From Patescibacteria group bacterium (lineage in GTDB: Bacteria; Patescibacteriota; Patescibacteriia; UBA9934; GWF2-40-263), in the NCBI GenBank assembly GCA_004297215.1, contig SCUM01000001.1, positions 143,456-207,455 on the forward strand: a stretch of DNA of 64,000 bases, given 5' to 3'. This document shows, in pieces, positions 1,359 through 13,204 of this stretch. The notes below the pieces were generated by a model, which was not told the DNA's origin, ran no database searches, and saw only the letters and a list, made by a program, of their open reading frames with translations. The position numbers and the translations under genes are program-made. Positions within the stretch are counted from its first letter, which is position 1; each line of letters begins with the position of its first letter.

Positions 1359-1410
1359 TTCCGGGGTAGTCTCCGACCCGACGGGTCGTAGACCCGGAGG
1401 GCTCAGCGGC
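1359..1410 (+). repeat. 52-nt repeat copy 1: tRNA-Asn 5'-end mimic (TTCCGGGGTA..GCTCAGCGGC) split by a 32-nt hairpin insert
   Basis: Near-identical to 1665-1716 with 1 mismatch. Its outer parts match tRNA-Asn positions -5 to +19 at 1742-1765. Confidence 0.6.
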
Positions 1411-1420
1411 TGCGCGATGT

Positions 1421-1675
1421 ATGTACTTTGTCTACTTGCTGCAAAGTGAGAAAGACCATCAATATTACATCGGTCAGACGCAGGATCTCTCCATTCGCCT
1501 GGAACAACACAACGCCGGTACCGTACGCTCTACACGACATCGGACCCCTTTTCGCCTGGTCGGTCATGAGACTCATCCGACACGAGCAGAGGCCCGTTGG
1601 CGTGAGTACACTCTGAAACGGAGTGCACACCAACGGAAAAAGTTCATCGAGAAATTAACGCACATTCCGGGGTAG
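1421..1675 (+). CDS. GIY-YIG nuclease family protein (YhbQ/UPF0213-like), 84 aa
   Basis: N-terminal YFVYLLQSEKDHQYYIGQTQDLSIRLEQHN fits the GIY-x10-YIG ... R ... HN pattern of small free-standing GIY-YIG proteins. Confidence 0.75.
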   Translation: MYFVYLLQSEKDHQYYIGQTQDLSIRLEQHNAGTVRSTRHRTPFRLVGHETHPTRAEARWREYTLKRSAHQRKKFIEKLTHIPG

Positions 1676-1716
1676 TCTCCGACCCGACGGATCGTAGACC
1701 CGGAGGGCTCAGCGGC
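1665..1716 (+). repeat. 52-nt repeat copy 2 (tRNA-Asn 5'-end mimic with hairpin insert). It overlaps the last codons and the stop codon of the GIY-YIG ORF.
   Basis: Direct repeat of 1359-1410. The ORF ends ..HIPG-TAG, using the repeat's GGTAG. Confidence 0.6.
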
Positions 1717-1746
1717 ATCGCTGTGTCTCGCACGTGCAAATTACAT

Positions 1747-1821
1747 TCCGGGGTAGCTCAGCGGCAGAGCAGTGGACTGTTAATCCATTGGTCGTGGGTT
1801 CGAATCCCACCCCCGGAGCCA
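1747..1821 (+). tRNA. tRNA-Asn (anticodon GTT), CCA encoded
   Basis: Manual cloverleaf: acceptor TCCGGGG/CCCCGGA; D-arm GCTC-AGCGGC-AGAGC; anticodon stem GTGGA/TCCAT with loop CTGTTAA; T-arm GTGGG-TTCGAAT-CCCAC; discriminator G then CCA. Confidence 0.9.
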
Positions 1822-1954
1822 TGAGCGACTGTGTCTGGCGACCCAGACACGGTCGGTCAATAGAGCATCAAGAAATTGGTGTGCTGCTGACCGATAGAGG
1901 CGACTTCACCGTAAGTAGGGAGAAGGTCATTTAAAAGGAGGTGCCGGAACTTTC

Positions 1955-2545
1955 TTGAATATGGCCAGAAAATGTTTCATCTCGTTTAAGACAGAGGACA
2001 TCGCTTACAAGGAAGCGATACAAAATGACCCCAACATAGACATGATTGATAAGTCTCTGAATGAGGCTATAGATTCAGACGACGAGGATTACATTATGCG
2101 CGCGATCCGTGACCAGTACCTGTCGGACTCCACGGTGACGATTCACTTGATTGGGAACAAAAGTTCCGAGGTCCTCGGTTACGAGGAACAGAAATTCATC
2201 AAGCGAGAACTCCAGGCTTCTCTGTATAACGGAGAGAATAACGCAAGAAGTGGTATTCTCGGCGTCGTGCTTCCGTCCATGTACGAAAGTATCTTTAAGG
2301 GGCCTTTCGAATGTACCACCTGTCGTGAGAGTCATAATTGGGTGATCGTCGGGGACGGGACGACGGTTTCGGAGTTCCATCGCAACTACTACATACAACA
2401 CGACAAGTGCCATCACGCGGAGGATGATCGCTATTGCGTGCTTGTGAAGTGGGACGACTTTCGTCTCAATCCCAACACGTATATCGAACAGGCGTTTCTG
2501 AAGCGAGATCACGCCATCGCGGAAAAGGTGAAGGTGCGCCCCTAA
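1955..2545 (+). CDS. ThsB-like TIR-domain protein (DUF1863-type TIR). The ATG at 1961 may be the true start.
   Basis: N-terminal RKCFISFKTEDIAY resembles the (K)RVFFSFHYQD motif of Thoeris ThsB. The central VTIHLIGNKSSEVLGYEEQKFIKREL...GILGV resembles ThsB VLIGSQTFNRRWCRYEI...GNKIIGI. SD-like AAGGAGGTG lies upstream. Confidence 0.6.
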   Translation: MNMARKCFISFKTEDIAYKEAIQNDPNIDMIDKSLNEAIDSDDEDYIMRAIRDQYLSDSTVTIHLIGNKSSEVLGYEEQKFIKRELQASLYNGENNARSGILGVVLPSMYESIFKGPFECTTCRESHNWVIVGDGTTVSEFHRNYYIQHDKCHHAEDDRYCVLVKWDDFRLNPNTYIEQAFLKRDHAIAEKVKVRP

Positions 2546-2550
2546 TCAAT

Positions 2551-3039
2551 ATGTTCAGACTAAAGAAACGAGAAGCTATGGCAGTTCCCGGCAATACCGA
2601 ACAAGAACCTGATTCCGGGTACGCACGGCTAGAACAGCAAATCAGGTGGTATGACACGAAGTCGCAAAGCGCTCAGCATTATTACAAATGGGCGAAGATC
2701 CTGGAATTCAGTTTTGCGGGACTCATTCCTTTTTTAGCGAGCACATCTTCGTGCATCACTGCTGCATTAGGAATTCTGATTATCGTCCTCGAGGGTTTGC
2801 AACACGTAAACCAATGGTCGCACAATTGGATCACATATCGCTCCACATGCGAGGCACTCCGACATGAGAAGTACCTGTACATTGGCCGTTCAGTTGTTTA
2901 TGCGGGAATGAGCGATGAGGAGGCGAAAAAAGTGCTCGTTGAACGAGTTGAATCTTTGATTTCAACCGAGCACGCAAAATGGATTTCCCAGCAAGATCTG
3001 ACAACAAAAGCCCCCCACAGTGCGAAGAAAGAAGAATAA
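2551..3039 (+). CDS. DUF4231/SLATT-family two-TM protein, a putative membrane effector
   Basis: LEQQIRWYDTKSQSAQHYYKWAKILEFSFAGLIPFLAS...LGILIIVLEGLQHVNQWSHNWITYRSTCEALRHEKYLY is a W..Y...Y..W + 2TM + EKYLY architecture typical of SLATT/DUF4231. The start is 6 nt after the TIR gene stop. Confidence 0.55.
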   Translation: MFRLKKREAMAVPGNTEQEPDSGYARLEQQIRWYDTKSQSAQHYYKWAKILEFSFAGLIPFLASTSSCITAALGILIIVLEGLQHVNQWSHNWITYRSTCEALRHEKYLYIGRSVVYAGMSDEEAKKVLVERVESLISTEHAKWISQQDLTTKAPHSAKKEE

Positions 3040-3064
3040 AGCGTCTGCCCTTGAGTCCTGCTAC

Positions 3065-3250
3065 CTAGACCGCCGGTTCCACCGTTCCATCAGAGATCCT
3101 CATGGTTGATTTGATGTGAGACAGAAGATCTCGTTTCTCCTCCCGGGTCCCTTCCTTCAGAATATATTTTGCGCACGCGTACACATTGATGTCCGGCATG
3201 ATCTCGGCAATCTTTGCGGTCGTGGCGTGGTCGCCAAGGCTGGAGATCAT
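3065..3250 (-). CDS. Small hypothetical ORF (61 aa) between the SLATT gene and mod. It may be non-coding.
   Basis: ORF only. Weak RBS, no recognisable motif. Confidence 0.2.
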   Translation of the reverse strand: MISSLGDHATTAKIAEIMPDINVYACAKYILKEGTREEKRDLLSHIKSTMRISDGTVEPAV

Positions 3251-3332
3251 TTTTTTCTACCCTTTTTACCCACAATCAGGCCTCTCTTTTTTACCTTAAC
3301 TACTGTAAACTTAGGGGGTTCGAAAAACCGCT

Positions 3333-4994
3333 ATGTCTAGACACCAGAAGTACAAAAAATGGGACAAGGAGAAGCTGATCTCGGAGATCTGCCGACTTGA
3401 GGACTGCAAGAAATACGGTTTGGTTTGGGAGGATAAGCCTGAGGATGTGGCGGAGCAATGCAGGGAGCAGTTACCGGTTTTAGAGGAGGTGCCAGAAAGA
3501 GCGCATCTCAAAGATGGATTGCTTGGGACCAATATTTTGATAGAAGGAGATAATTACCACGCACTTTCCGTTTTAAATTACACGCATAAGGGCGCGATTG
3601 ATGTCGTTTATATTGATCCGCCCTATAACACAGGAGCTAGGGACTGGAAATATAACAATGACTACGTCGATATTAACGACGTTTTCAGGCACAGCAAGTG
3701 GCTCTCGATGATGCAGAGACGGCTCCTTCTCTCGAAAGATTTATTAAAGGATGATGGCGTACTAATCGTGACGATCGATAAGCATGAGCAGCCGAGAATC
3801 GTAATTTTACTTGAGGAGCTTTTTCCGGATAAGGAAATAGTCACAGTCGTCATTGAGCACAACCCCAAGGGCTCACCGACACGGCACTTTACGTATACAA
3901 ATGAGTTTGCAATTTTCGTAGTACCAAAGGCGACGAATGTGATAGGAAAAGATCCGACCGAAAAAGTGGACACGCGCAATCTTCGCAGAGCTGGTCGTGC
4001 GTCGACTCGAAAAGAAAGGCCGACGATGTTTTATCCAATTTACGTAAGGAGTGGAAAGGTTATAAGGGTTGGTGATACGCCGGACGCCTCATTTCATCCT
4101 AAAAAAAGAAATGTTGTACAAAAAAATGGTGAAATCGCTATTTGGCCCATCGATGACGATGGTCGAGAGAGGCGGTGGCACTTTGGACTGGATTCGATCA
4201 ATGATTATCTAGACCGCATTGAGGTTCGGCAGTCCAAGGGAGAAATACAATTATTCGTGACGGCTTCGCCCGGGCGATACAAGACTGTATGGCGAGGCGG
4301 CGAATTCGACGCTGGTAAATATGGAACCTCCCTGGTCAGGGACCTGATCGGCGTCGAATTTCCTTACCCAAAATCTGTATTTGCGACGGCTAAGTGTCTC
4401 GAGACCGTTGTACACGGGCGGCCCGATGCTTTAATTTTGGACTATTTTGCCGGCTCTGGAACCACGGGGCACGCGACGCTTTACCTCAACAAAAAGTTTG
4501 GTGGTAACCGGCGATTCATACTCTGCACTAACAACGAAAACGACATAGCAGAGGATATTACCTTTCCGCGACTGATTAAAGTAATTGACGGCCACAAGGA
4601 CCATAAGGATACAACAGGCATACCGGTCAATCTGCGCTACTTCAAAACGACCTTCGTAAAAAAATCAGACGTTTCAGATGATACCCGCCGTGAGCTTGTG
4701 AAACGTTCGATGGAGATGATCTGCGTGAAGGAGGGCACCTTCCAAAAAATTGCAGACAATAAGCAGTTCAAGATTTATCGCGACGTGAATCATGTCACCG
4801 GCATCCTCTACAATCTGGATGCAATATCCGAATTCAAGAAGAAGATTTCGGACCTTGGTCTCTCGGCAAGCATCTACGTATTTTCGTTAACGACGGATAC
4901 GTACGATGCCGATTTCGTAGATTTGGAAGTCAAATACACGCTTTGTCCGATCCCGGAAAGCATCCTCGAGGTCTATCGCAAACTGTTCGCGTGA
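3333..4994 (+). CDS. mod: Type III restriction-modification system methyltransferase (Mod, beta-class N6-adenine/N4-cytosine MTase)
   Basis: DPPY motif (VVYIDPPYNTGARDW) lies N-terminal to the FxGxG SAM motif (LDYFAGSGTTGHA), with a variable region between them. This is the beta-class order typical of Mod. Confidence 0.85.
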   Translation: MSRHQKYKKWDKEKLISEICRLEDCKKYGLVWEDKPEDVAEQCREQLPVLEEVPERAHLKDGLLGTNILIEGDNYHALSVLNYTHKGAIDVVYIDPPYNTGARDWKYNNDYVDINDVFRHSKWLSMMQRRLLLSKDLLKDDGVLIVTIDKHEQPRIVILLEELFPDKEIVTVVIEHNPKGSPTRHFTYTNEFAIFVVPKATNVIGKDPTEKVDTRNLRRAGRASTRKERPTMFYPIYVRSGKVIRVGDTPDASFHPKKRNVVQKNGEIAIWPIDDDGRERRWHFGLDSINDYLDRIEVRQSKGEIQLFVTASPGRYKTVWRGGEFDAGKYGTSLVRDLIGVEFPYPKSVFATAKCLETVVHGRPDALILDYFAGSGTTGHATLYLNKKFGGNRRFILCTNNENDIAEDITFPRLIKVIDGHKDHKDTTGIPVNLRYFKTTFVKKSDVSDDTRRELVKRSMEMICVKEGTFQKIADNKQFKIYRDVNHVTGILYNLDAISEFKKKISDLGLSASIYVFSLTTDTYDADFVDLEVKYTLCPIPESILEVYRKLFA

Positions 4995-4995
4995 T

Positions 4996-7278
4996 ATGAA
5001 ACTCAAGGATTATCAGAAAATCGCGGTAGACAAGCTGCTCTCCATAAGCAAGAAGTTGTTGCAGAAAGAGGGTATGCGCATATGCGTCCTGAAGGCGCCG
5101 ACTGGCTCGGGAAAGACCATCATGGTCGCCGACTTCCTTGATCAGCTCGCCCATGCTCACATCGCCGGCGCATATTCTTTTATATGGATCAGCGGTAACA
5201 AACTTCATGAACAGAGCCGGGCAAAGCTTGAAGGATATCTTTCCGAGAGTCGCTATTCGTTCTCGTATCTCGATGAGGCCAGCGCTGGAAGCTTTTCGGA
5301 AAACGAGATTGTCTTTGTGAACTGGCATAGCCTCACGAGGCAGGACAATGAGACCGGCGAGTATACGAACGTCTTCATGAAGGAGAATGAGCAGGACCGT
5401 GACCTGCCGACCTTCATTCGTAACACCAAGGCGGAGGGGCGCGAGGTCATCCTCATCGTGGACGAGAGCCATTATCATTATTGGAGCAAAAAGTCGCAGG
5501 AGCTGGTCCAGTCCGTCATCGGTCCAAAGCTCATCCTTGAAGTCTCAGCGACGCCGACCAACCAGCCGACCCCGGACGAGCTTTCGAGCGGAGACGCTGG
5601 GTACGTCGCAGTGAAGTACGATGACGTGGTCGCGGAAGGAATGATCAAGAATGAGATTGTCATCAACAAGGATGTCGGTAAGTTCAGCGACATCCAGCGA
5701 TCCGCGGACGAGGTCGTCATTGACGCCGCGATAGAGAAGCAGAAGGAGCTCAAGAAACGGTTCGTCAAGATTGATGTCGACATCAATCCGCTCGTGCTCA
5801 TCCAGTTGCCGAGCGAGAGCCAGACGACGTCCGTGCTCGACAAGACCAAGCTTGAATTCGTCGAGGCGTACCTGAAGAAAAAGCACGGCGTCACTGTCGA
5901 GAACGGCAGGCTTGCCGTGTGGCTTTCGAATCGCAAGGACAACGTCGTGAATGTCGAGATGCCGAACGCCAAGGTCGATGTCATGATCTTCAAGCAGGCA
6001 ATCGCGCTCGGTTGGGATTGCCCGAGGGCGCAGATCCTTGTGATGTTTCGTGAGATTCAGAGCCAGGTGTTCGAGATCCAGACGGTCGGGCGCGTGCTCC
6101 GCATGCCCGAAGCGAAGCACTATGAGGATGAGGAGCTCAATCGAGCGTTCGTCTACACGAACCTGCCAGCAATCACCATCGCTGCTGACGACGCGAGTCA
6201 GCGTTTCTTTCAGGTGCATCCAGCGCATCGCATCGAAGGGTACGAGGCGGTAAAGCTTCCGTCGGTCTATATCGGGAGGACCGACTTCGGCGACCTTACG
6301 CTCTCTTTCCGAAAGCTCTTCATCGAGGAGGCGAACAAGCGTTGTGGCATCGGGAAAGACGACATCATGGACAAGGCCTTCAAGAAGGCCGACAAATTGA
6401 TGGAGCTGTATCCTGAGGAACTGACCCATCCCGTGATCTCGGACGCGGTCGTCGGCAATCTCGACGAGGCAAGGGAGATTGCCGGTGAGAAGGCAGAGTT
6501 CGCCATCCCCGAGGACGAGCTGAAGTATCGCTTCGAACAGTTTGCCAAGATCGCGTCGCTGCCGTATGCGCCGGTGCGCTCGCATACCAAGGTGCAGCAG
6601 GCTATCTACGACTGGTTCGACGGTTACCTCGGATACGAGAAAAGGAGCCGAATCGAAATTCAGCGAGCCGTCGTTTGTTCCGAGGCGAATCAGAAGCTAT
6701 TCGCAGAGATTATCGAGGCCGCAAAGGCTCGCTTCGCCGATATCCGCCGATCTGAACTCGACGGTAAGAAAAGTGAGCAGGCTTACGAATGGGACGTGCA
6801 GGCGATTGAATACTTCAACGAGCGTCACGAACGAATCGCTGTATCGAATTACGCCATGGATAAGTGTTATGTGCTCACAGATCGCTCCAAGCCGGAGAAG
6901 GATTTTGAGCTCACAGTCGCAGCAGCCAAGGGGGTTTTGTGGTGGTACAAGAACGGTGTGAGCAAGCGGGATTATTTTGCGGTGCCCTATGATGACCCGA
7001 AGACGGGTGCTCGTAGGGCCTTCTACCTGGATTATGTTGTCGTCATGAAGGATGGCTCGGTTAGTATCTTCGACACCAAGTCTGGGGTCACGGCGGACAG
7101 CGCCGAAACCGGCGCGAAGTCCGATGCGCTTCAGGCCTACATCAAGAGAAATACGACGAAGAGTAAGAGGATTTGTGGCGGAATCGTCGTTAGTCGTCAA
7201 GATGGGACTTTTGTTTTCGTAGGATCGAAATATACTTCGGATCCGAGAGATAAGGGTTGGGTGCGGTTAGAACTGTAG
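4996..7278 (+). CDS. res: Type III restriction enzyme Res subunit (SF2 helicase with C-terminal nuclease region)
   Basis: Walker A LKAPTGSGKT, DExH ILIVDESHY, motif III EVSATP, motif VI QTVGRVLR. Start is 2 nt after the mod stop (translationally coupled). Confidence 0.85.
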   Translation: MKLKDYQKIAVDKLLSISKKLLQKEGMRICVLKAPTGSGKTIMVADFLDQLAHAHIAGAYSFIWISGNKLHEQSRAKLEGYLSESRYSFSYLDEASAGSFSENEIVFVNWHSLTRQDNETGEYTNVFMKENEQDRDLPTFIRNTKAEGREVILIVDESHYHYWSKKSQELVQSVIGPKLILEVSATPTNQPTPDELSSGDAGYVAVKYDDVVAEGMIKNEIVINKDVGKFSDIQRSADEVVIDAAIEKQKELKKRFVKIDVDINPLVLIQLPSESQTTSVLDKTKLEFVEAYLKKKHGVTVENGRLAVWLSNRKDNVVNVEMPNAKVDVMIFKQAIALGWDCPRAQILVMFREIQSQVFEIQTVGRVLRMPEAKHYEDEELNRAFVYTNLPAITIAADDASQRFFQVHPAHRIEGYEAVKLPSVYIGRTDFGDLTLSFRKLFIEEANKRCGIGKDDIMDKAFKKADKLMELYPEELTHPVISDAVVGNLDEAREIAGEKAEFAIPEDELKYRFEQFAKIASLPYAPVRSHTKVQQAIYDWFDGYLGYEKRSRIEIQRAVVCSEANQKLFAEIIEAAKARFADIRRSELDGKKSEQAYEWDVQAIEYFNERHERIAVSNYAMDKCYVLTDRSKPEKDFELTVAAAKGVLWWYKNGVSKRDYFAVPYDDPKTGARRAFYLDYVVVMKDGSVSIFDTKSGVTADSAETGAKSDALQAYIKRNTTKSKRICGGIVVSRQDGTFVFVGSKYTSDPRDKGWVRLEL

Positions 7279-7396
7279 CTCAGAACGCTGTCTTTACAGC
7301 CTATAATCTCTGTAACCCACGTGCGTCGTTCGGCCCGACGGAATACCCCTGAAAGGTTGCCCAAAATTGAGGTCTGTACCCGTACGTCGAGCCATG

Positions 7397-7426
7397 AAAA
7401 AAGAACAGACTCATCTGTTCTTTTTT
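7397..7426. terminator. Bidirectional rho-independent terminator
   Basis: AAAAAAGAACAGA-CTCA-TCTGTTCTTTTTT: 13-bp perfect stem flanked by an A-run and a T-run. Confidence 0.6.
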
Positions 7427-7564
7427 CATATCTGGGTGGGATTCGGACGGGGAGGGTTTGGGAACCCTGCCGGCAGGCAGGCGTGAGGTTCCCGCCTCTG
7501 CCGGGGGAGGCCCGCGGAGGGGTGGAAACCACTCTGCTCTGCGAACGCTTGTGAGCGCGTGCAA

Positions 7565-7582
7565 AATTCCACCCCGGAGCCA
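7565..7582 (+). repeat. Imperfect direct repeat of the tRNA-Asn 3' end (attR-like)
   Basis: 17/18 match to 1803-1821, with further weak similarity in the downstream 8 nt. Confidence 0.45.
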
Positions 7583-7676
7583 ACGACTTCTCAGCCTTCG
7601 CTAGGATTTGTTCTTTGCGTGGAGCTGTCTGTAATGGGATTTGAGCTGGTATACTGTTTTTAATCAACCTTCCGCT

Positions 7677-8615
7677 ATGAACATCGTGAAATTGTTCAAT
7701 CGCCTCGTCGAGTCCTATCTGTTCGTCGTCGTGATAGCCTTAGTGGCCGGGTTGGCATTTTCGGAGCGCATTTCCATCCTCACGGCGTACACGACGGTAT
7801 TCCTGCAAATCATTTTTTTCCTTTCAAGCCTGAAGCTGGATCCGAAGGCGATAGTGAAAGAGGCGAAGGACGTCAAACTCATCCTGCTGGTGAACGCCTT
7901 CAAGCTCCTCATCCTTCCCGCCGTCGTCTATCTTGTCGCGGCGCGCCTGTATCCATCGATGGCCGTTCCCCTGTTGCTGCTTTCCGCGGTGCCCAGCGGG
8001 ATGACGACGCCCCTGCTCGTGGAGGTGGTCGGGGGGAAACAGGGGTTGGCGCTCGTCCTCACCGTCACCAGTTCTTTGATCGCGCCGCTCACGATCCCGT
8101 TGGTCATCGGGCATTTCGCCGGCACGGCCGTGACGGTAAACGCCTTCGAGATGTTCCAGAAGCTCGTGCAGGTCATCGTCATTCCATTCCTGATCGCGCA
8201 GGCGGTGCGCGCGTTCCTCGACCGCCGGCTTTCGGCGACCTATTTCACGTTCAAGCCGATTTCCATCGTCATCCTCGGACTGCTGATTGCCGGCGCGGTG
8301 GCAAAGCAGGCCTCCGTCATCCTGTCGCATGTCGACATGACCATGTTGATCCTGTTGTGCGTCCTTTTCCTTTTCGTCGCCCTGATGCTTTCCATCGGGT
8401 ACGCCATGGCATACTGGCGCGATTGCTCGGATCGGCTGACGGTCGCCGTCAGCACGGCGTTCATGAATTTCTCGCTCGCCATCTTCCTCGCGGACGCGTT
8501 CTTTCCGGACCCGAACGTCTTGCTCGCGTCCGTCCTCGTCATCTTTCCCTGGGCGATGATGCTGTTGCCCTTCAAGCACGTCGTTCACAGGTTCATCTGC
8601 AAGACGCCGGCGTGA
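7677..8615 (+). CDS. Bile acid:sodium symporter (BASS/SBF) family transporter
   Basis: About 9 TM helices, BASS-like size and hydropathy pattern. ATG at 7677, in frame with the track ORF starting at 7641. Confidence 0.6.
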   Translation: MNIVKLFNRLVESYLFVVVIALVAGLAFSERISILTAYTTVFLQIIFFLSSLKLDPKAIVKEAKDVKLILLVNAFKLLILPAVVYLVAARLYPSMAVPLLLLSAVPSGMTTPLLVEVVGGKQGLALVLTVTSSLIAPLTIPLVIGHFAGTAVTVNAFEMFQKLVQVIVIPFLIAQAVRAFLDRRLSATYFTFKPISIVILGLLIAGAVAKQASVILSHVDMTMLILLCVLFLFVALMLSIGYAMAYWRDCSDRLTVAVSTAFMNFSLAIFLADAFFPDPNVLLASVLVIFPWAMMLLPFKHVVHRFICKTPA

Positions 8616-8745
8616 GGACGTTTTCAGGATAGGGAGTAAAGGCGACCTTCGTGCGCACAGATAGCGATTCTAACGTCGTCCACGACGCGGGCAAAATTAA
8701 CATGACCGTCTACGGGCGACCGTGTCGAGTGAGGCAGGAGTCCGA

Positions 8746-9363
8746 TTAGCACCCCATGTCGCCGTCGATGGGGCAGGCCTTGGAGGCGGGGTTGGCCTTG
8801 GGCGTGCCGGGGTCGGGGCCGATGGTGATGTAGTCGGCGGCCTTGGTGAGCTTCCACTCGTGCTCGTGGTTCCAGCCGGTCCAGTCGTGCTTCCATTCGT
8901 TCCAGCCGATGCCCAGGTGCTTCACGAAGATCCCGCGCTCGGCGAGCATCTTGCCCACCTTGCGGCCGGTCATGCAGGGGATGGAGTAGCAGTAGACGAT
9001 GACGTCCTTCTCCTTCGGCAACGCGGCGAAGGCCTCGGTGATGCGATCGACCTCGTCGTAGGCGGAGGTGTCCTTGTCCTTGTACGCGGGGATGCTGACG
9101 GCGCCTGTGACGTGGCCGAGCGCGTATTCTTCGGCGCTGCGCAGGTCCACGAGCACGAACGAGTCGTCGCCCTTGTCCATCATCTTGCGCAGGCCATGCG
9201 GGCTCACGTGCACGGCGGATTCGGTGCGGTAGAAGTCGGCGATCAGCTCCGCGTCGCTCGCGTGGCGCGCGGGGAGCAGGGAAACGATGCCCCAGGCGGA
9301 ACCGGCGCCCGCGGCGGCGCCCAGGAGCACGGAGACGACGATGGTGAGGATGGCCTTGTTCAT
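8746..9363 (-). CDS. Rhodanese-domain (sulfurtransferase-like) protein with N-terminal signal/TM
   Basis: Rhodanese fold signature: LVDLRSAEEYALGHVTGAVSIP ... VIVYCYSIPCMTGRK (active-site Cys loop). Confidence 0.7.
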   Translation of the reverse strand: MNKAILTIVVSVLLGAAAGAGSAWGIVSLLPARHASDAELIADFYRTESAVHVSPHGLRKMMDKGDDSFVLVDLRSAEEYALGHVTGAVSIPAYKDKDTSAYDEVDRITEAFAALPKEKDVIVYCYSIPCMTGRKVGKMLAERGIFVKHLGIGWNEWKHDWTGWNHEHEWKLTKAADYITIGPDPGTPKANPASKACPIDGDMGC

Positions 9364-9495
9364 ACGGGCTTTCGGCGATTAGGCGGCTCCAGCATACGCC
9401 GTGAGCCCAAAAATCGCCACAGGGAGGAGGTCGGGTCGTGGATGTTGAATAGGTGAAGAGGGTGTATACTTAGAAAAATCATTAACCTTTGGCGT

Positions 9496-9765
9496 ATGAC
9501 CGTCTCTCCAAAGCGTCTCGCGCTTACGTTTGGCCTGTTCGCGGGCCTCGTGCACCTCGTCTGGTCCGTGCTCGTGGCCGTGGGCCTCGCACAGGGGCTC
9601 GTGGACTTCCTCTATGCGGCGCACTTCATGTCGCAGATGCCCTCGAAGGTCGACCCGTTCTCGCTTGGGAACGCCGCGCTGCTCGTGATCTTCAGCTCCG
9701 CGGTCGGCTACGCGGCCGGATGGGTGGTCGCGACCATCTGGAACAAGACCGCAAACGCGAAGTGA
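9496..9765 (+). CDS. Small two-TM membrane protein, hypothetical
   Basis: ORF with two hydrophobic helices. No motif. Confidence 0.35.
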   Translation: MTVSPKRLALTFGLFAGLVHLVWSVLVAVGLAQGLVDFLYAAHFMSQMPSKVDPFSLGNAALLVIFSSAVGYAAGWVVATIWNKTANAK

Positions 9766-9851
9766 CGCGGATCGTCGGGCGCGCGCCGTGAGGGCGCGGA
9801 TTTTACGTTTCGACTTCCGCACGGTATCGTTAGGCCTGAATCGATGATGGT

Positions 9852-11081
9852 ATGTACGGATACATCGCCCTAAAGCTCCTGTCGGCCGTGGTCGGCGCGA
9901 TCGCCCTGGTCCTCATCCTGAGGGGGCTGTTGCTCATCCGCAAGCGCTCCGAACCGGGGACGCGCCTGGCCATCGACGCCGGGGTCGCGGGTCTCGCGCT
10001 TGCCGCCGTCGCCTACGTGGTCGCGAGCGTCCCGCTCCCGCTGAATTTCGCCATGCCGCCCACCATGCACGCGATGACCATGGACCGGAAGCCGGCCTCG
10101 CTGCCGATCCCCGCCATCCTCGACTTCTTGTCCCACCGGGACCGATTCGCGAAGGTGGCCGACGTCGGGAGGGATCCCAACGACGTTCCGGCCCCGGTCG
10201 GGGCACGGGCGCCGCAGACGGTGAAGATCGACGTGCGCGCCAAGGAGGTGATCTCCGAGGTCGCGCCCGGGATCTTCTTCAACTACTGGACGTACGGCGG
10301 CCAGGTGCCCGGGCCCATGTACCGCGTGCGCGTGGGCGACACGGTCGAGACGACCCTTGCCAACGACCCGACGAGCCTGCACCCGCACAACATCGACCTC
10401 CATGCCGTGACCGGTCCCGGCGGCGGCGCGTCGGTCACCAACGTGCAGCCCGGGGAGACCAAGGCGTTCCGGTGGCTCGCCAAGCATCCGGGGCTGTACG
10501 AGTACCACTGCGCCATGCCCAACGTGAGCACGCACAATTCCCACGGCCAGTACGGGCTCATCCTCGTGGAACCCGAGGGCGGATTCGCACCGGTCGACAA
10601 GGAGTTTTACCTGATGCAGGGGGAGCTCTACACCATGGGCGGGATCGGGAAGAAGGGGCTCATGGCGTTTGACACGCAGGGGCTCATCGACGGGACGCCC
10701 AGCTACGTCACCTTCAACGGCAAGGTGGAGCAAACCCCGCGCATGAAAGCGCGCGTAGGCGACCGCATCCGCCTGTTCGTGGGCAACGGCGGGGTAAACC
10801 TGGTCTCGTCGTTCCACGTGATCGGGGAGGTGTTCGACACGGTGTATCCCGAAGCGGCGATCGGCGAGGGTTCCGCCGTCTTCAAGAACGTGCAGACCAC
10901 GGCCGTGCTACCCGGAGGCGCCGCGATCGTGGAGTTCACGGTCGACGTCCCTGGGAAATACCTGATGGTCGACCACGCGCTCGCGCGCATGAACAAGGGC
11001 GCCTGGGCCGTGCTCGAGGTGGAGGGCGAGGCGAACCCCGCCGTATTCACCGCCCTGGAACCGGAGACTGCGGCCCAGTAA
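9852..11081 (+). CDS. nirK: Copper-containing nitrite reductase NirK (multicopper oxidase type)
   Basis: HNIDLHAVTGPGGGA and YEYHCAMPNVSTHNSHGQYGLILVEP match NirK type-1/type-2 Cu ligand motifs. N-terminal TM anchor. Confidence 0.85.
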   Translation: MYGYIALKLLSAVVGAIALVLILRGLLLIRKRSEPGTRLAIDAGVAGLALAAVAYVVASVPLPLNFAMPPTMHAMTMDRKPASLPIPAILDFLSHRDRFAKVADVGRDPNDVPAPVGARAPQTVKIDVRAKEVISEVAPGIFFNYWTYGGQVPGPMYRVRVGDTVETTLANDPTSLHPHNIDLHAVTGPGGGASVTNVQPGETKAFRWLAKHPGLYEYHCAMPNVSTHNSHGQYGLILVEPEGGFAPVDKEFYLMQGELYTMGGIGKKGLMAFDTQGLIDGTPSYVTFNGKVEQTPRMKARVGDRIRLFVGNGGVNLVSSFHVIGEVFDTVYPEAAIGEGSAVFKNVQTTAVLPGGAAIVEFTVDVPGKYLMVDHALARMNKGAWAVLEVEGEANPAVFTALEPETAAQ

Positions 11082-11103
11082 GGCATTCGTTAGGAACGGA
11101 AAC

Positions 11104-11133
11104 AAAAAAGCCCCGCCGATGGCGGGGCTTTTC
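11104..11133 (+). terminator. Rho-independent terminator after nirK
   Basis: AAAAAAGCCCCGCC-GAT-GGCGGGGCTTTTCT. Confidence 0.7.
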
Positions 11134-11366
11134 TCCGCTTTACGCGGCGGCTTCCGTGGAAGGGGCCGGGGCGGCCGGAGACTCCTCGGTCGGCTTCTGG
11201 GTCTCGTCGGCGGCCGCGGCGGGCATGTTGGTGTCGTCCATAGGAGTCGTTGTTCGCGGATTAGGTGCTAAATATAGCTTAAAAATCGTACCTTGTCAAT
11301 AGAGATACGATTTGGATGGAGGCTCGTTGCCAAAACAAAAGAAATCCGCTATGCTTCGCCAATTCT

Positions 11367-11741
11367 ATGTATAAACCCCATCACGGCAAGCACGGCGGCG
11401 GATTCGGCGGCGGCAAGAAGTTCGGCGGATCTCCGTCGTGGAAGCGCGGCGGCGCCGACGAACGGGGGTTCGTGCGACCGGACCTGCACGACGCCACCTG
11501 CGGCAAATGCGGCGCGCCCTGCAAGGTGCCGTTCCGACCGAACGGATCCCGGCCCATCTACTGCCGCGACTGCTTCAAGAAGGATGACGCGTCGGAGCCG
11601 AAGCGTTTTGAGAAGCGTCCGTTCGGCGACAAGCCGTACCGCTCCACCCCGCATGCGTCAGGCGGGAACATCGAGGCGCGGCTTAAGGCGATCGAGGACA
11701 AGCTGGATGCTATAATCGAGGCGCTCGAGGACGACATGTAA
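11367..11741 (+). CDS. Gly-rich, basic CxxC...CxxC zinc-ribbon protein, hypothetical. The track ORF begins at 11316; the ATG at 11367 is preferred.
   Basis: GKHGGGFGGGKKFGG low-complexity N-terminus, then ATCGKCGAPCKVPFRPNGSRPIYCRDCF zinc ribbon, and a C-terminal helical tail. Confidence 0.5.
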   Translation: MYKPHHGKHGGGFGGGKKFGGSPSWKRGGADERGFVRPDLHDATCGKCGAPCKVPFRPNGSRPIYCRDCFKKDDASEPKRFEKRPFGDKPYRSTPHASGGNIEARLKAIEDKLDAIIEALEDDM

Positions 11742-11752
11742 GACGCGGAAAC

Positions 11753-13204
11753 ATGGACCACGGAAACGTCATCATCCGGTTCGAAGGGGTGACCTTCGGA
11801 TACGACAAGGAAAAGCCCATCCTCAAGGAGGTGGATTTTTCGGTGCGCGACGCGGCCAAGATCACGGTGATGGGGCAAAACGGGGCGGGGAAGTCCACGA
11901 TCTTCAAGCTGCTCACCGGCGAACTCAAGCCCGACAAGGGACAGATTCACATCACGAACGGGTCAACGATCGCCATCGCCACGCAGGTGATGCCAAAGGA
12001 ATGCCTGGAGATGACCCTGCGCGAGTTCTTTGCCCGCGCCTACGCCGAAAAGAGATATGACCTCGACGGCCGCATCAAGGAGGCGCTCGACGCCGTGAAC
12101 CTCGATGCCGAGTACGACCGGATCGTGAAAAGTTTCTCCGGCGGCCAGCAGGCGCGGCTTCTTCTCGCCTACGCCATCATCCAGGACCCCGACATCCTGC
12201 TGCTCGACGAACCGACGAACAATCTCGACGCGGCCGGGATCGAACACCTCACCGGATTCCTGATGTGCTACCTGAAGACGGTGCTGGTCATTTCCCACGA
12301 CGCGGAGTTCCTCAATTCGTTCACGGAAGGGGTGCTCAACCTCGACGTGCACACGGGGAAGGTGGAGCGCTACGAGGGGAACTACTTCAACGTGGTGGAA
12401 GAGATCGCCGCGCGGGTGGAGCGCGACCGCATGCAGAACGCGCGCATGCTGAAGGAGATCCAGGATCGCAAGGACAAGATCAACTTTTTCAGCCACAAGG
12501 GGGGCAAGATGCGCGCCTTGGCGGCCAAGCTCAAGGAACAGGTGATCGAGGCCGAGGAGAACATGGTGGACGTGCGCCGCGAGGACCGCACGATCCGCGA
12601 TTTCGCCATTCCAACGCAGGACTTCACCGAACCCATGGTGACGATCACTTCCATCCGCGTCATCGAGCGCCACGAGCCGCGCCGAGCGCAGGTGAACGTC
12701 CTGTTGCGCAAGCGCCAACGCCTGCTCGTGAGTGGCCCGAACGGCATCGGCAAGAGCACGTTGCTGCGCAGCCTGGCCGAGGGGACCGACGAAGGAAGCT
12801 CCATCACCGCCGGCGTGAAGGTGGGCTATTACCGCCAGGATTTTTCCGGACTGGACTTCGATTCGACGGTGTACAAGTCGCTTGAGGAGATGATGGACGT
12901 GCCTGACAACGAACGGTTGCGCGAAGTGGCCGCGCAATTCCTGCTCACCGGCGAGCTGCTCCTCAACAAGGTCGGGTCGCTCTCGGAAGGGCAGAAGGGG
13001 CTTTTGAGCTTCGCGCGGTTCGTGCTGCAGCAGCCGGGACTGCTCATCCTCGACGAGCCCACCAATCACATCAACTTCCGCCACCTGCCCGTGATCGCCA
13101 AGGCGCTCGACGCCTTCGACGGCGCCATGATCATGGTGAGCCACGCCCCGGATTTCGTGAGCAAGATCAGCTTCACCGAGACGCTCGACCTGGGAGCCCT
13201 CTAG
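11753..13204 (+). CDS. ABC-F family ATPase (tandem ABC domains, no TM), a translation-factor type
   Basis: Two Walker A motifs (GQNGAGKST, GPNGIGKST), two signature motifs (FSGGQQARL, LSEGQKGLL), two Walker B motifs (LLLDEPTN, LILDEPTN) and an inter-domain linker. Confidence 0.8.
   Translation: MDHGNVIIRFEGVTFGYDKEKPILKEVDFSVRDAAKITVMGQNGAGKSTIFKLLTGELKPDKGQIHITNGSTIAIATQVMPKECLEMTLREFFARAYAEKRYDLDGRIKEALDAVNLDAEYDRIVKSFSGGQQARLLLAYAIIQDPDILLLDEPTNNLDAAGIEHLTGFLMCYLKTVLVISHDAEFLNSFTEGVLNLDVHTGKVERYEGNYFNVVEEIAARVERDRMQNARMLKEIQDRKDKINFFSHKGGKMRALAAKLKEQVIEAEENMVDVRREDRTIRDFAIPTQDFTEPMVTITSIRVIERHEPRRAQVNVLLRKRQRLLVSGPNGIGKSTLLRSLAEGTDEGSSITAGVKVGYYRQDFSGLDFDSTVYKSLEEMMDVPDNERLREVAAQFLLTGELLLNKVGSLSEGQKGLLSFARFVLQQPGLLILDEPTNHINFRHLPVIAKALDAFDGAMIMVSHAPDFVSKISFTETLDLGAL

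What the first reader, a model, noticed from the sequence alone, without database searches (positions are those of the whole stretch)
1955..3039. ThsB-like TIR protein paired with a SLATT (DUF4231) two-TM protein: a Thoeris-like module lacking canonical ThsA
Gene 1 (1955-2545) has the N-terminal FISFKxED motif and the central IGNKS...W..YE block characteristic of Thoeris ThsB/DUF1863 TIR proteins. Gene 2 starts 6 nt later and has the W..Y/2TM/EKYLY architecture of SLATT (DUF4231), a domain proposed to be a nucleotide-activated membrane-perturbing effector. No SIR2/Macro-SLOG ThsA is present. The pair therefore looks like a compact TIR sensor/signal-generator plus membrane effector. TIR-SLATT linkage has been predicted bioinformatically, but to my knowledge it has not been characterised as a defence system. 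It sits in a low-GC island next to a Type III RM, a typical defence-island context.
Basis: partly seen in the sequence, partly recalled or inferred. Interest (0 to 1): 0.85.

Follow-up and report, generated by a model that had tools for sequence, protein, structure and literature searches.

The report
TIR plus SLATT: type VII Thoeris
The two genes are a real TIR-enzyme and membrane-effector pair of the kind described in late 2025 as the anti-phage system "type VII Thoeris", here carried with a restriction system on a small island in a Patescibacteria genome, so it is a new example of a known system and not a new kind.

Summary
Gene 1 (1961-2545) is a ThsB-type TIR protein with an invariant putative catalytic Glu (E83). 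Gene 2 (most likely 2578-3039) is a 153-aa SLATT/DUF4231 protein with a two-helix membrane hairpin. They lie 5-32 nt apart on one strand, inside a 5.8-kb low-GC island at tRNA-Asn that also carries a type III restriction-modification system.

The pairing recurs well beyond chance. Of 65 genome loci found through the SLATT protein, 56 have a TIR gene within 1.5 kb.

Its novelty claim is out of date. Yirmiya et al. (bioRxiv, Dec 2025) defined TIR+SLATT as type VII Thoeris (ThsB+ThsH), showed defence for three systems, and identified canonical cADPR as the signal.

This instance is an untested sub-variant. Its TIR clade is not one of the tested ones. It also pairs with type VIII (TPR-S) effectors, which are cADPR-responsive too. 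Its effector is a single-module SLATT, whereas close relatives of one validated ThsB pair with a tandem SLATT.

Verdict: new member of a known kind, modest interest. A side lead: in some Acidobacteriaceae genomes a SLATT relative sits between a lysozyme gene and a TIR gene.

The parts
1747..1821 (+). tRNA-Asn (GTT); left boundary of the island (attL-like)
   Evidence: ARAGORN; Rfam tRNA at 73.5 bits. GC falls immediately downstream.
1961..2545 (+). thsB-like gene: 194-aa ThsB-type TIR protein. An in-frame TTG at 1955 is an alternative start. A GGAGG ribosome-binding site lies at 1937-1941.
   Evidence: Pfam ThsB_TIR E 7e-9. PADLOC ThsB E 3.5e-15. 100% identical to P0121. Foldseek match to ThsB structures 9vyl and 8wcf. 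HMM against PDB hits 9vyl at 3e-8.
2207..2209 (+). Codon of Glu83 (KRELQAS), the putative catalytic glutamate of the TIR domain
   Evidence: Invariant in 27 homologues. Aligns with the Glu of the 'WEI' motif of the NAD-bound ThsB structure 9vyl. That this position is catalytic rests on general knowledge of TIR NADases, not on a test here.
2312..2437 (+). C-terminal insert of the TIR protein with four conserved cysteines (C118, C121, C150, C159); possibly a zinc-binding or sensing module
   Evidence: C118, C121 and C150 are invariant and C159 is at least 90% conserved. A CxxC is also present in 9vyl in the aligned region. The function is inferred.
2578..3039 (+). thsH-like gene: 153-aa single-module SLATT/DUF4231 membrane effector. 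ATG 2551 is an alternative start.
   Evidence: DUF4231 E 2.6e-18. NCBIfam SLATT_1 at 101 bits, above the cut-off of 41. 100% identical to P0001. AF2 mean pLDDT 82.6, four helices.
2689..2805 (+). Hydrophobic helical hairpin (about residues 38-76), the predicted two-transmembrane segment of the SLATT domain
   Evidence: Kyte-Doolittle 19-residue windows reach 2.16. AF2 helices H16-54 and H58-78 are separated by a 3-residue turn.
3065..3250 (-). 61-aa ORF of unknown function between the Thoeris pair and the restriction-modification genes; called as a gene in a public assembly
   Evidence: ORF list. Gene call in L155. No Pfam, PADLOC or NCBIfam hit.
3333..4994 (+). Type III restriction-modification methyltransferase (Mod)
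   Evidence: PADLOC MTase_III E 2e-69. Pfam N6_N4_Mtase E 1.3e-21.
4996..7278 (+). Type III restriction enzyme (Res) helicase-nuclease subunit
   Evidence: Pfam ResIII E 8.6e-17. PADLOC REase_III E 1.3e-16.
7394..7429 (.). Perfect 16-bp inverted repeat with a 4-nt loop, downstream of res; possible terminator
   Evidence: the repeat finder pair I2. The function is inferred.
7565..7582 (+). Degenerate direct repeat of the last 19 nt of tRNA-Asn (attR-like); right boundary of the roughly 5.8-kb island
   Evidence: AATTCCACCCCGGAGCCA against AATCCCACCCCCGGAGCCA: one substitution plus one deletion. It is the only such site in the 64-kb window. 1 of 1000 block shuffles of 1823-12000 gave a match.

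Best explanation
A two-gene, type VII Thoeris-like abortive-infection module on a horizontally acquired tRNA-Asn island.

Proposed mechanism:
1. The ThsB-type TIR protein stays inactive until phage infection.
2. It then uses its conserved glutamate (E83) to convert NAD+ into a cyclic ADP-ribose signal, most probably canonical (N1) cADPR.
3. The signal binds the conserved cytoplasmic face of the 153-aa SLATT protein.
4. The SLATT protein oligomerises through its two-helix membrane hairpin and breaches the membrane, stopping growth of the infected cell and phage replication.

What is shown here: domain identities, conservation of the catalytic residue, gene adjacency, recurrence of the pairing, and the island context.

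What is inferred from published work on other members: the phage trigger, the identity of the signal, oligomerisation and membrane damage.

The confidence given (0.65) is for the full statement including cADPR. For the general scheme of a TIR-made nucleotide signal gating a SLATT membrane effector, I would say about 0.85.
For: Domain identities:
- TIR.
- SLATT.
- E83 is invariant.

Gene arrangement: the two genes are co-directional, 5-32 nt apart, with no terminator-like site between them on the + strand.

Recurrence of the pairing:
- Among 65 genome loci found through the SLATT, a ThsB-type TIR lies immediately upstream in 33.
- A TIR_2-type protein lies within 1.5 kb in 23 more. Ten of ten checked with Pfam contain a TIR_2 domain.
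- The same pair, window-type TIR plus short SLATT, occurs in Saccharibacteria, Paceibacterota, Omnitrophota and Acidobacteriota MAGs. It also occurs in the lysogeny region of Enterococcus phage IME197, with the TIR 59% and the SLATT 39% identical.

Literature: TIR+SLATT is type VII Thoeris. Three systems defend, their TIRs make cADPR only after infection, and exogenous cADPR (but not 2'- or 3'cADPR) arrests cells carrying the system.

Links to validated members:
- A TIR 62% identical to the validated Pseudohongiella ThsB sits directly upstream of a short SLATT that is 54% identical to the window's (L014).
- TIRs 38-44% identical to the Bacillus licheniformis-cluster ThsBs pair with short DUF4231 proteins 40% identical to the window's.
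- The short SLATT profile aligns to the N-terminal module of the tandem SLATTs that follow 83-90% homologues of the Pseudohongiella ThsB (hhalign 92%, E 6e-7).

Support for cADPR as the signal:
- Of 80 TIR-anchored metagenome loci, all with a TIR at least 63% identical to the window's, 26 pair it with a SLATT and 46 with a TPR-S protein.
- The paper's Table S1 lists TIRs of this clade, 66% identical to the window's, as 'CMP hydrolase - Type VIII'. Type VIII also responds to cADPR.
Against: - No experiment exists for this protein pair or for any TIR of its clade paired with a SLATT.
- The tested type VII TIRs come from other clusters (2734565194, 2713147196, 2727267812).
- The window's TIR falls in cluster 2741407742. 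That cluster also holds the type VI E. coli TIRs, which are 35% identical to the window's and belong to a type that signals with 2'cADPR.
Close relatives of one validated ThsB pair with a 294-aa tandem SLATT_3+SLATT_1 protein. It has no BLAST-level similarity to the window's 153-aa protein (E 0.03).
- Pfam SLATT_1 is marginally below its gathering score.
- No solved structure resembles the SLATT model, so the pore or oligomer mechanism is untested by structure.
Confidence: 0.65

Rival explanations
1. Same TIR-to-SLATT signalling architecture, but the messenger is not canonical cADPR. It could be 2'cADPR as in type VI, 3'cADPR, His-ADPR, N7-cADPR or an undescribed ADPR derivative. That would make this a functionally distinct subtype.
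For: The TIR belongs to the paper's cluster 2741407742 together with type VI TIRs; type VI signals with 2'cADPR. The effector is a single-module SLATT only remotely related to the tandem SLATTs next to Pseudohongiella-like ThsBs. SLATTs mostly co-cluster with their TIR class: the nearest neighbour has the same label for 17 of 20 window-type pairs. That leaves room for co-evolved specificity.
Against: The type VI TIRs are only 35% identical to the window's. TIRs 66-73% identical pair with type VIII-like TPR-S effectors, a cADPR-responsive class. Short SLATTs stay 47-58% identical across very different TIR partners. One of those partners is 62% identical to a validated cADPR producer. This suggests a shared ligand.
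Confidence: 0.2
2. No second messenger is involved. The TIR is itself the effector, an NAD+-depleting NADase. The SLATT protein acts as a membrane anchor, sensor or antitoxin-like partner. Alternatively, the pair acts as an addiction module that stabilises the island.
For: Many bacterial TIR proteins kill by NAD+ depletion (general knowledge). The pair travels with a restriction-modification system on a small island that has no integrase, a setting where addiction modules are common.
Against: The same TIR clade is found with at least four unrelated partner families: short SLATT, tandem SLATT, TPR-S proteins and an alpha/beta-hydrolase fused to TPR-S. That is the signature of a diffusible signal with interchangeable receptors. 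In the tested type VII systems the effector is activated by added cADPR alone.
Confidence: 0.07
3. The SLATT protein is primarily a holin-like lysis or membrane protein, and the TIR linkage in this genome is incidental or decayed, so the pair does not work as a defence system.
For: In five Acidobacteriaceae loci a SLATT relative 46-56% identical directly follows a GH24 'phage lysozyme' gene. This recalls holin-endolysin cassettes.
Against: Four of those five loci also carry a TIR_2 gene flanking the lysozyme-SLATT pair. L028 has a TIR-like hit too, but it lies only just under 1.5 kb beyond the lysozyme. The window has no lysozyme. Both window ORFs are intact with all family-invariant residues.
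Confidence: 0.04

Closest known systems
Type VII Thoeris (ThsB + ThsH; Yirmiya et al., bioRxiv 2025, 10.64898/2025.12.03.692087)
   Same: A two-gene operon of a ThsB-type TIR and a SLATT-domain membrane protein, with no ThsA, found in defence islands. The window's SLATT family pairs with TIRs related to validated ThsBs: 62% identical to the Pseudohongiella ThsB and 38-44% to the B. licheniformis cluster.
   Different: The TIR belongs to a cluster (2741407742) not among the tested type VII TIRs and carries a four-cysteine C-terminal insert. The effector is a single 153-aa SLATT module. Near-identical relatives of the Pseudohongiella ThsB pair with a 294-aa tandem SLATT_3+SLATT_1. The host is a Patescibacteria MAG. 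Signal and defence are untested.
Type VIII Thoeris (ThsB + ThsI, 'CMP hydrolase' + TPR; same paper)
   Same: It shares the TIR clade. TIRs 63-73% identical to the window's sit next to roughly 400-aa TPR-S proteins in 46 of 80 metagenome loci. The paper's Table S1 labels two such TIRs as type VIII. Type VIII also uses cADPR.
   Different: There is no TPR-S/ThsI gene in the window. The effector is a membrane protein, not a predicted nucleotide hydrolase.
Type II Thoeris (ThsB + Macro-domain two-transmembrane effector; His-ADPR signal)
   Same: A TIR signal generator plus a small membrane-spanning effector that kills by membrane disruption (as summarised).
   Different: There is no Macro domain. 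The SLATT fold and the likely signal differ.
Type VI Thoeris (ThsB + DUF6650; 2'cADPR signal)
   Same: The TIR is a distant relative, 35% identical, in the same cluster, with a similar length and Cys-containing C-terminal region.
   Different: The effector family is different: there is no DUF6650.
SLATT effectors of CBASS and retron/RT-SLATT systems (Burroughs et al. 2015; Rousset et al. 2021/2022)
   Same: The same effector superfamily, proposed to be a nucleotide-activated membrane-perturbing two-transmembrane domain.
   Different: No CD-NTase or reverse transcriptase lies next to it. The signal generator is a TIR.
Prophage TIR-SLATT neighbourhoods (Staphylococcus phages SN8/SN10, Enterococcus phage IME197; noted by Iyer, Burroughs, Aravind et al., Viruses 2022, PMC9503650)
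   Same: Homologous pairs. The IME197 TIR is 59% and its DUF4231 39% identical. The SN8 DUF4231 is 40% identical.
   Different: Gene order is reversed (SLATT then TIR). The pairs sit in phage lysogeny modules beside the integrase, not on a tRNA island with a restriction-modification system.

Membership tests
Type VII Thoeris | ThsB-type TIR-domain protein | tested here: met
   Pfam PF08937 at 36.4 bits, above the cut-off of 21.2. PADLOC ThsB E 3.5e-15. Foldseek 9vyl_A (ThsB with NAD) E 1.8e-8 and 8wcf (EcThsB) 8e-4.
Type VII Thoeris | Catalytic glutamate of the TIR NADase/cyclase site is present | tested here: met
   E83 is invariant in 27 homologues and aligns to the Glu of 'WEI' in 9vyl. Its catalytic role is assumed from knowledge of the family.
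Type VII Thoeris | Adjacent, co-oriented effector with a SLATT domain and transmembrane helices (ThsH) | tested here: met
   NCBIfam SLATT_1 at 101 bits, above 41. DUF4231 at 66.8 bits, above 24.7. Hydrophobic hairpin at residues 38-76. Intergenic gap of 5-32 nt.
Type VII Thoeris | Effector is homologous to an experimentally validated ThsH | tested here: inconclusive
   The validated ThsH sequences could not be retrieved. Indirect evidence:
- A short SLATT 54% identical to the window's follows a TIR 62% identical to the validated Pseudohongiella ThsB.
- Homologues of that ThsB at 83-90% identity pair instead with a tandem SLATT. It is related to the window's protein only at profile level (hhalign 92%).
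Type VII Thoeris | The TIR-SLATT pair is conserved across genomes and lies in defence or mobile contexts | tested here: met
   56 of 65 SLATT-anchored genome loci have a TIR within 1.5 kb. The pair lies next to a type III restriction-modification system on a tRNA island and occurs in prophage lysogeny modules.
Type VII Thoeris | Signal is canonical cADPR, produced only on infection, and activates the effector | not testable with these tools
   Needs LC-MS and toxicity assays. The only indirect support is that this TIR clade also pairs with type VIII-like effectors.
Type VII Thoeris | Confers phage resistance | not testable with these tools
   Needs plaque assays.
Type I Thoeris | ThsA effector with SIR2 and SLOG domains | tested here: not met
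   The island's genes are TIR, SLATT, a 61-aa ORF, Mod and Res only. The top-listed families for the rest of the window are housekeeping.
Type II Thoeris | Macro-domain transmembrane effector | tested here: not met
   No Macro hit for gene 2 or its neighbours.
Type VIII Thoeris | ThsI effector (nucleotide-hydrolase-like domain plus TPR-S) | tested here: not met
   No TPR-S protein in the island, although the TIR clade is shared with such systems.
CBASS with SLATT effector | CD-NTase (SMODS) cyclase adjacent to the effector | tested here: not met
   The neighbours are a TIR, a 61-aa ORF and restriction-modification genes.

The most novel reading that the evidence does not exclude
The window's pair may represent a distinct, untested Thoeris subtype. 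It combines a TIR clade that carries a four-cysteine insert with a single-module SLATT. The subtype circulates among Patescibacteria, other uncultured lineages and a temperate Enterococcus phage.

Its signal or trigger could differ from the three validated type VII systems. Its SLATT family may act as a nucleotide-gated, holin-like gate. The lysozyme, SLATT and TIR_2 gene clusters in Acidobacteriaceae hint at this: opening the membrane there would release a signal-less endolysin.
Probability: 0.2. Interest if true: 0.55.

Novelty: new member of a known kind. Interest (0 to 1): 0.3.

Why it matters
It shows that a sequence-only reading can pick out a real signalling defence module. It also shows that the module now has a name and a mechanism, so it should not be reported as a new system.

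What this instance adds is modest but usable:
- It places a type VII-like Thoeris on a compact island, with a restriction-modification system, in a reduced Patescibacteria genome.
- It documents that one tightly conserved TIR clade is exchanged between SLATT (type VII) and TPR-S (type VIII) effectors. That is independent genomic support for a shared messenger.
- It separates single-module from tandem SLATT effectors.
- The lysozyme-SLATT-TIR arrangement seen in Acidobacteriaceae suggests a testable idea for how SLATT effectors kill.

Tried and rejected
1. I tried to obtain the validated ThsH sequences.
   - The paper's Table S1 is truncated before the SLATT rows, and Table S3 before any type VII entry.
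   - A protein search with the Pseudohongiella TIR domain returned only hits of 90% identity or less.
   - tblastn of the B. licheniformis TIR against plasmids and phages gave relatives of 49% identity or less. The best, on a Planococcus plasmid, has no SLATT nearby.
   - Homology to validated ThsH therefore remains indirect.

2. Direct BLASTP of the window's SLATT against tandem SLATTs is not significant. Only profile-profile comparison links them.

3. A Foldseek search of the SLATT model against the PDB found only generic helical bundles, all with E above 0.4. No structural precedent exists.

4. My first TIR profile was too narrow. It missed the Pseudohongiella-type and TIR_2-type partners, which made the pairing look like only 32 of 65 loci. 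BLAST with Table S1 sequences, jackhmmer and Pfam checks corrected this.

5. I looked for an RNA gene in 7150-7750, where the ORF translations looked RNA-like. Nothing credible turned up. The inverted T-arm-like match at 7434-7448 is unexplained.

6. The consensus promoter scan found nothing above chance upstream of gene 1.

7. I considered type I and type II Thoeris, CBASS and retron-SLATT systems. I rejected them because ThsA, a Macro domain, a CD-NTase and a reverse transcriptase are all absent.
Full report
**1. What is in the sequence**

Two co-directional ORFs occupy 1955-3039.

Gene 1:
- It most likely starts at ATG 1961, giving 194 aa. That product is 100% identical to a public protein from a Patescibacteria MAG, which NCBI names, misleadingly, 'molecular chaperone Tir' (P0121).
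- It matches Pfam ThsB_TIR (36.4 bits, cut-off 21.2) and PADLOC ThsB models (E 3.5e-15).
- An AlphaFold2 model (pLDDT 72.5) finds ThsB crystal structures as its only significant PDB matches: 9vyl_A with NAD at E 1.8e-8 and 8wcf at 8e-4.
- In an alignment of 27 homologues, Glu83 (KRELQAS) is invariant. It aligns with the Glu of the 'WEI' motif of 9vyl, the position of the catalytic glutamate in TIR NADases (general knowledge).
- The C-terminal half carries four conserved cysteines: C118, C121, C150 and C159.

Gene 2:
Homologues are about 150 aa and begin at the position equivalent to ATG 2578. The public gene call also uses 2578, giving 153 aa (P0001).
- It matches DUF4231 (66.8 bits, cut-off 24.7) and NCBIfam SLATT_1 (101 bits, cut-off 41). 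Pfam SLATT_1 is just below threshold.
- The AlphaFold2 model (pLDDT 82.6) is four helices. Residues about 38-76 form a hydrophobic hairpin.
- No solved structure resembles it.

**2. Context**

The pair lies immediately after tRNA-Asn (1747-1821). It is followed by a 61-aa ORF of unknown function on the other strand, then a type III Mod (3333-4994) and Res (4996-7278).

GC is 0.45-0.57 across 1500-8000, mostly below 0.55, against 0.60-0.70 outside.

The last 19 nt of the tRNA recur at 7565-7582 with one substitution and one deletion. This is the only such site in the window, and it appeared in 1 of 1000 shuffles. That delimits an island of about 5.8 kb with no integrase.

A Logan assembly contig (L155, 5,905 bp) is identical to window 1792-7696, almost exactly the island.

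The remaining genes of the window are housekeeping: ATP synthase, GluRS, PBP, UvrD and others.

**3. Is the pairing real?**

The SLATT protein has more than 1,000 database relatives and the TIR more than 2,800.

A scan of one genome per species with the SLATT alignment gave 65 loci.
- In 33, a ThsB-type TIR lies directly upstream on the same strand. Nine are the 194-aa window type, in Saccharibacteria, Paceibacterota, Omnitrophota, Acidobacteriota and unclassified MAGs. Most of the others are shorter ThsB-type TIRs of about 130 aa, mainly in Alphaproteobacteria. One is a Pseudohongiella-type TIR.
- In 23 further loci (Acidobacteriota, Actinomycetota, Methanothrix) a TIR_2-domain protein lies within 1.5 kb. 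It stands alone or is fused to PD40 propellers, NHL/Vgb-like repeats or a beta-helix. Ten of ten checked by Pfam were TIR_2.
- In total, 56 of 65 loci link this SLATT family to a TIR.

Temperate phages carry the pair too. Enterococcus phage IME197 has a window-type TIR (59% identical) and a DUF4231 (39%) between an Abi gene and the endolysin, about 2 kb from the integrase. Staphylococcus phage SN8 has a short TIR plus a DUF4231 (40%) just upstream of the integrase. These are the neighbourhoods noted earlier by the Aravind group (PMC9503650).

**4. What is known**

Yirmiya et al. (bioRxiv, 3 Dec 2025) surveyed TIR clusters in defence islands and named TIR+SLATT 'type VII Thoeris' (ThsB + ThsH).
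- Systems from an Alteromonadales scaffold, Pseudohongiella nitratireducens and Bacillus licheniformis protected against phages.
- Their TIRs produced canonical cADPR only after infection.
- Added cADPR, but not 2'- or 3'cADPR, arrested growth of cells carrying the Alteromonadales and B. licheniformis type VII systems.
- AlphaFold3 predicted a membrane-spanning ThsH oligomer with positively charged inter-protomer pockets.
- Types VII and VIII together occur in about 2% of genomes.
- A 2026 preprint uses type VII Thoeris as a cADPR reporter.

**5. How this instance relates to the validated ones**

The tested type VII TIRs belong to clusters 2734565194, 2713147196 and 2727267812. The window's TIR belongs to cluster 2741407742.
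- In the accessible part of Table S1, that cluster holds type VI TIRs, which are 35% identical to the window's; type VI signals with 2'cADPR.
- It also holds two TIRs labelled 'CMP hydrolase - Type VIII', one of which is 66% identical to the window's.

A TIR-anchored scan of metagenomes (80 loci, all at least 63% identical) shows this clade next to several partners:
- short SLATTs in 12 loci;
- tandem SLATT_3+SLATT_1 proteins in 14;
- roughly 400-aa TPR-S proteins in 46, many of them near-duplicate gut contigs;
- an alpha/beta-hydrolase fused to TPR-S in at least one locus, and a second TIR_2 protein in two.

Interchangeable partners for one conserved TIR are what a diffusible messenger predicts. 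Both SLATT (type VII) and TPR-S (type VIII) effectors are reported to respond to cADPR, so cADPR is the most likely signal here. This is an inference.

On the effector side:
- Homologues of the validated Pseudohongiella ThsB at 83-90% identity are followed by 294-305-aa tandem SLATT proteins.
- A 62% homologue (L014) is followed by a short SLATT 54% identical to the window's.
- The short family aligns to the N-terminal module of the tandem proteins only at profile level (92% probability).
- Short SLATTs tend to cluster with their TIR class, yet remain 47-58% identical across classes.

I could not obtain the validated ThsH sequences, so direct homology to a tested effector is unproven.

**6. 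Mechanism, with its status**

Shown here:
- a TIR fold with a conserved active-site Glu;
- a two-helix membrane SLATT protein with highly conserved cytoplasmic motifs (RLEQQI-WYD-KS, YRSTCEALRHEKY, ERVESLISTEH-KW);
- operon-like spacing;
- recurrent linkage of the two families;
- an island context with a restriction-modification system.

Inferred from the literature:
- phage-triggered conversion of NAD+ to cADPR;
- binding of the signal to the cytoplasmic face of the SLATT protein;
- oligomerisation and membrane permeabilisation, leading to abortive infection.

Rivals:
- a different ADPR-derived signal (0.2);
- a non-signalling NADase or addiction module (0.07);
- a holin-like or decayed function (0.04).

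**7. Verdict**

This is a real feature, correctly read in functional terms. It now falls under a named and experimentally supported system.

It is a new member, arguably a sub-variant: a Cys-insert TIR clade, a single-module SLATT and a Patescibacteria host. It is not a new kind. Interest is modest (0.3).

The most interesting by-products lie outside the window. They are the effector swapping of this TIR clade and the lysozyme-SLATT-TIR_2 clusters in Acidobacteriaceae. The latter suggest that SLATT effectors may act like signal-gated holins.

Noticed in passing
L024, L025, L026, L028, L042 (around 3250-5700 in each locus): In five Acidobacteriaceae MAGs a SLATT relative (46-56% identical to the window's) directly follows a signal-less GH24 'Phage_lysozyme' gene on the same strand. 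In four of them a TIR_2 protein of 335-440 aa flanks the pair on the opposite strand: convergent after the SLATT in L025, L026 and L028, upstream of the lysozyme in L024 and L042 (in L042 it lies only just within 1.5 kb of the SLATT). This lysozyme, SLATT and TIR arrangement suggests a signal-gated, holin/endolysin-like kill mechanism.
   Followed up: partly
L046, L052, L053, L054, L063, L064 (Methanothrix and Methanosarcinales): Archaeal SLATT relatives (40-45% identical) are followed on the same strand by 470-600-aa proteins. The two checked with Pfam (L046, L054) are a TIR_2 domain fused to a right-handed beta-helix; the others were found by jackhmmer only. This would be a TIR-SLATT module in methanogens with a fused putative sensor.
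   Followed up: partly
L066-L145 (metagenome loci anchored on the TIR): One tightly conserved TIR clade (at least 63% identical) is found with short SLATT, tandem SLATT, TPR-S (type VIII-like), alpha/beta-hydrolase+TPR-S and an extra TIR_2 partner. Human-gut contigs carry TIR, TPR-S and a second short TIR in that order.
   Followed up: partly
window 1747-1821 and 7565-7582: The 3' end of tRNA-Asn is repeated in degenerate form 5.7 kb downstream. The repeats bracket a low-GC island carrying the Thoeris pair and a type III restriction-modification system, with no integrase.
   Followed up: yes
window 1792-7696 (= L155): A 5,905-bp contig from a public Logan assembly (SRR8426588) is 100% identical to this stretch, almost exactly the island. 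Its ends may reflect assembly-graph breaks caused by island-free variants.
   Followed up: partly
window 2312-2437 (TIR residues 118-159): Four conserved cysteines (CxxC ... C ... C) lie in the C-terminal insert of this TIR clade. A CxxC is also present in the related solved ThsB 9vyl. The insert may be a zinc site or a sensing module.
   Followed up: no
window 7394-7448: A perfect 16-bp hairpin (7394-7429) is followed by a 15-nt segment (7434-7448) that is the reverse complement of the tRNA-Asn T-arm region. Neither ARAGORN nor Rfam finds an RNA gene here.
   Followed up: partly
window 1400-1775: Short copies of the tRNA-Asn 5' part lie upstream of the tRNA, overlapping the end of a GIY-YIG nuclease gene (1421-1675): ACATTCCGGGGTAG at 1662 and 1743, and GGCTCAGCGGC-like at 1400, 1706 and 1755. 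They may be scars of earlier rearrangements.
   Followed up: no
window 1930-1949 and 3478-3497: A 20-nt direct repeat (85% identical) contains the GGAGG ribosome-binding site of the TIR gene. The second copy lies inside the mod ORF. Its significance is unknown.
   Followed up: no
window 3065-3250 (- strand): A 61-aa ORF between the SLATT gene and mod is called as a gene in the public assembly but has no family match in Pfam, PADLOC or NCBIfam.
   Followed up: partly
window 1961-2545: NCBI names the identical protein 'molecular chaperone Tir', a mis-annotation that confuses the TIR domain with the Tir chaperone.
   Followed up: no
L141 5398-7581: Downstream of a window-type TIR plus TPR-S pair lie a patatin-like phospholipase, a 209-aa ORF and a TIR 70% identical to the validated Alteromonadales type VII ThsB. 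This is a multi-effector, multi-TIR defence cluster.
   Followed up: no
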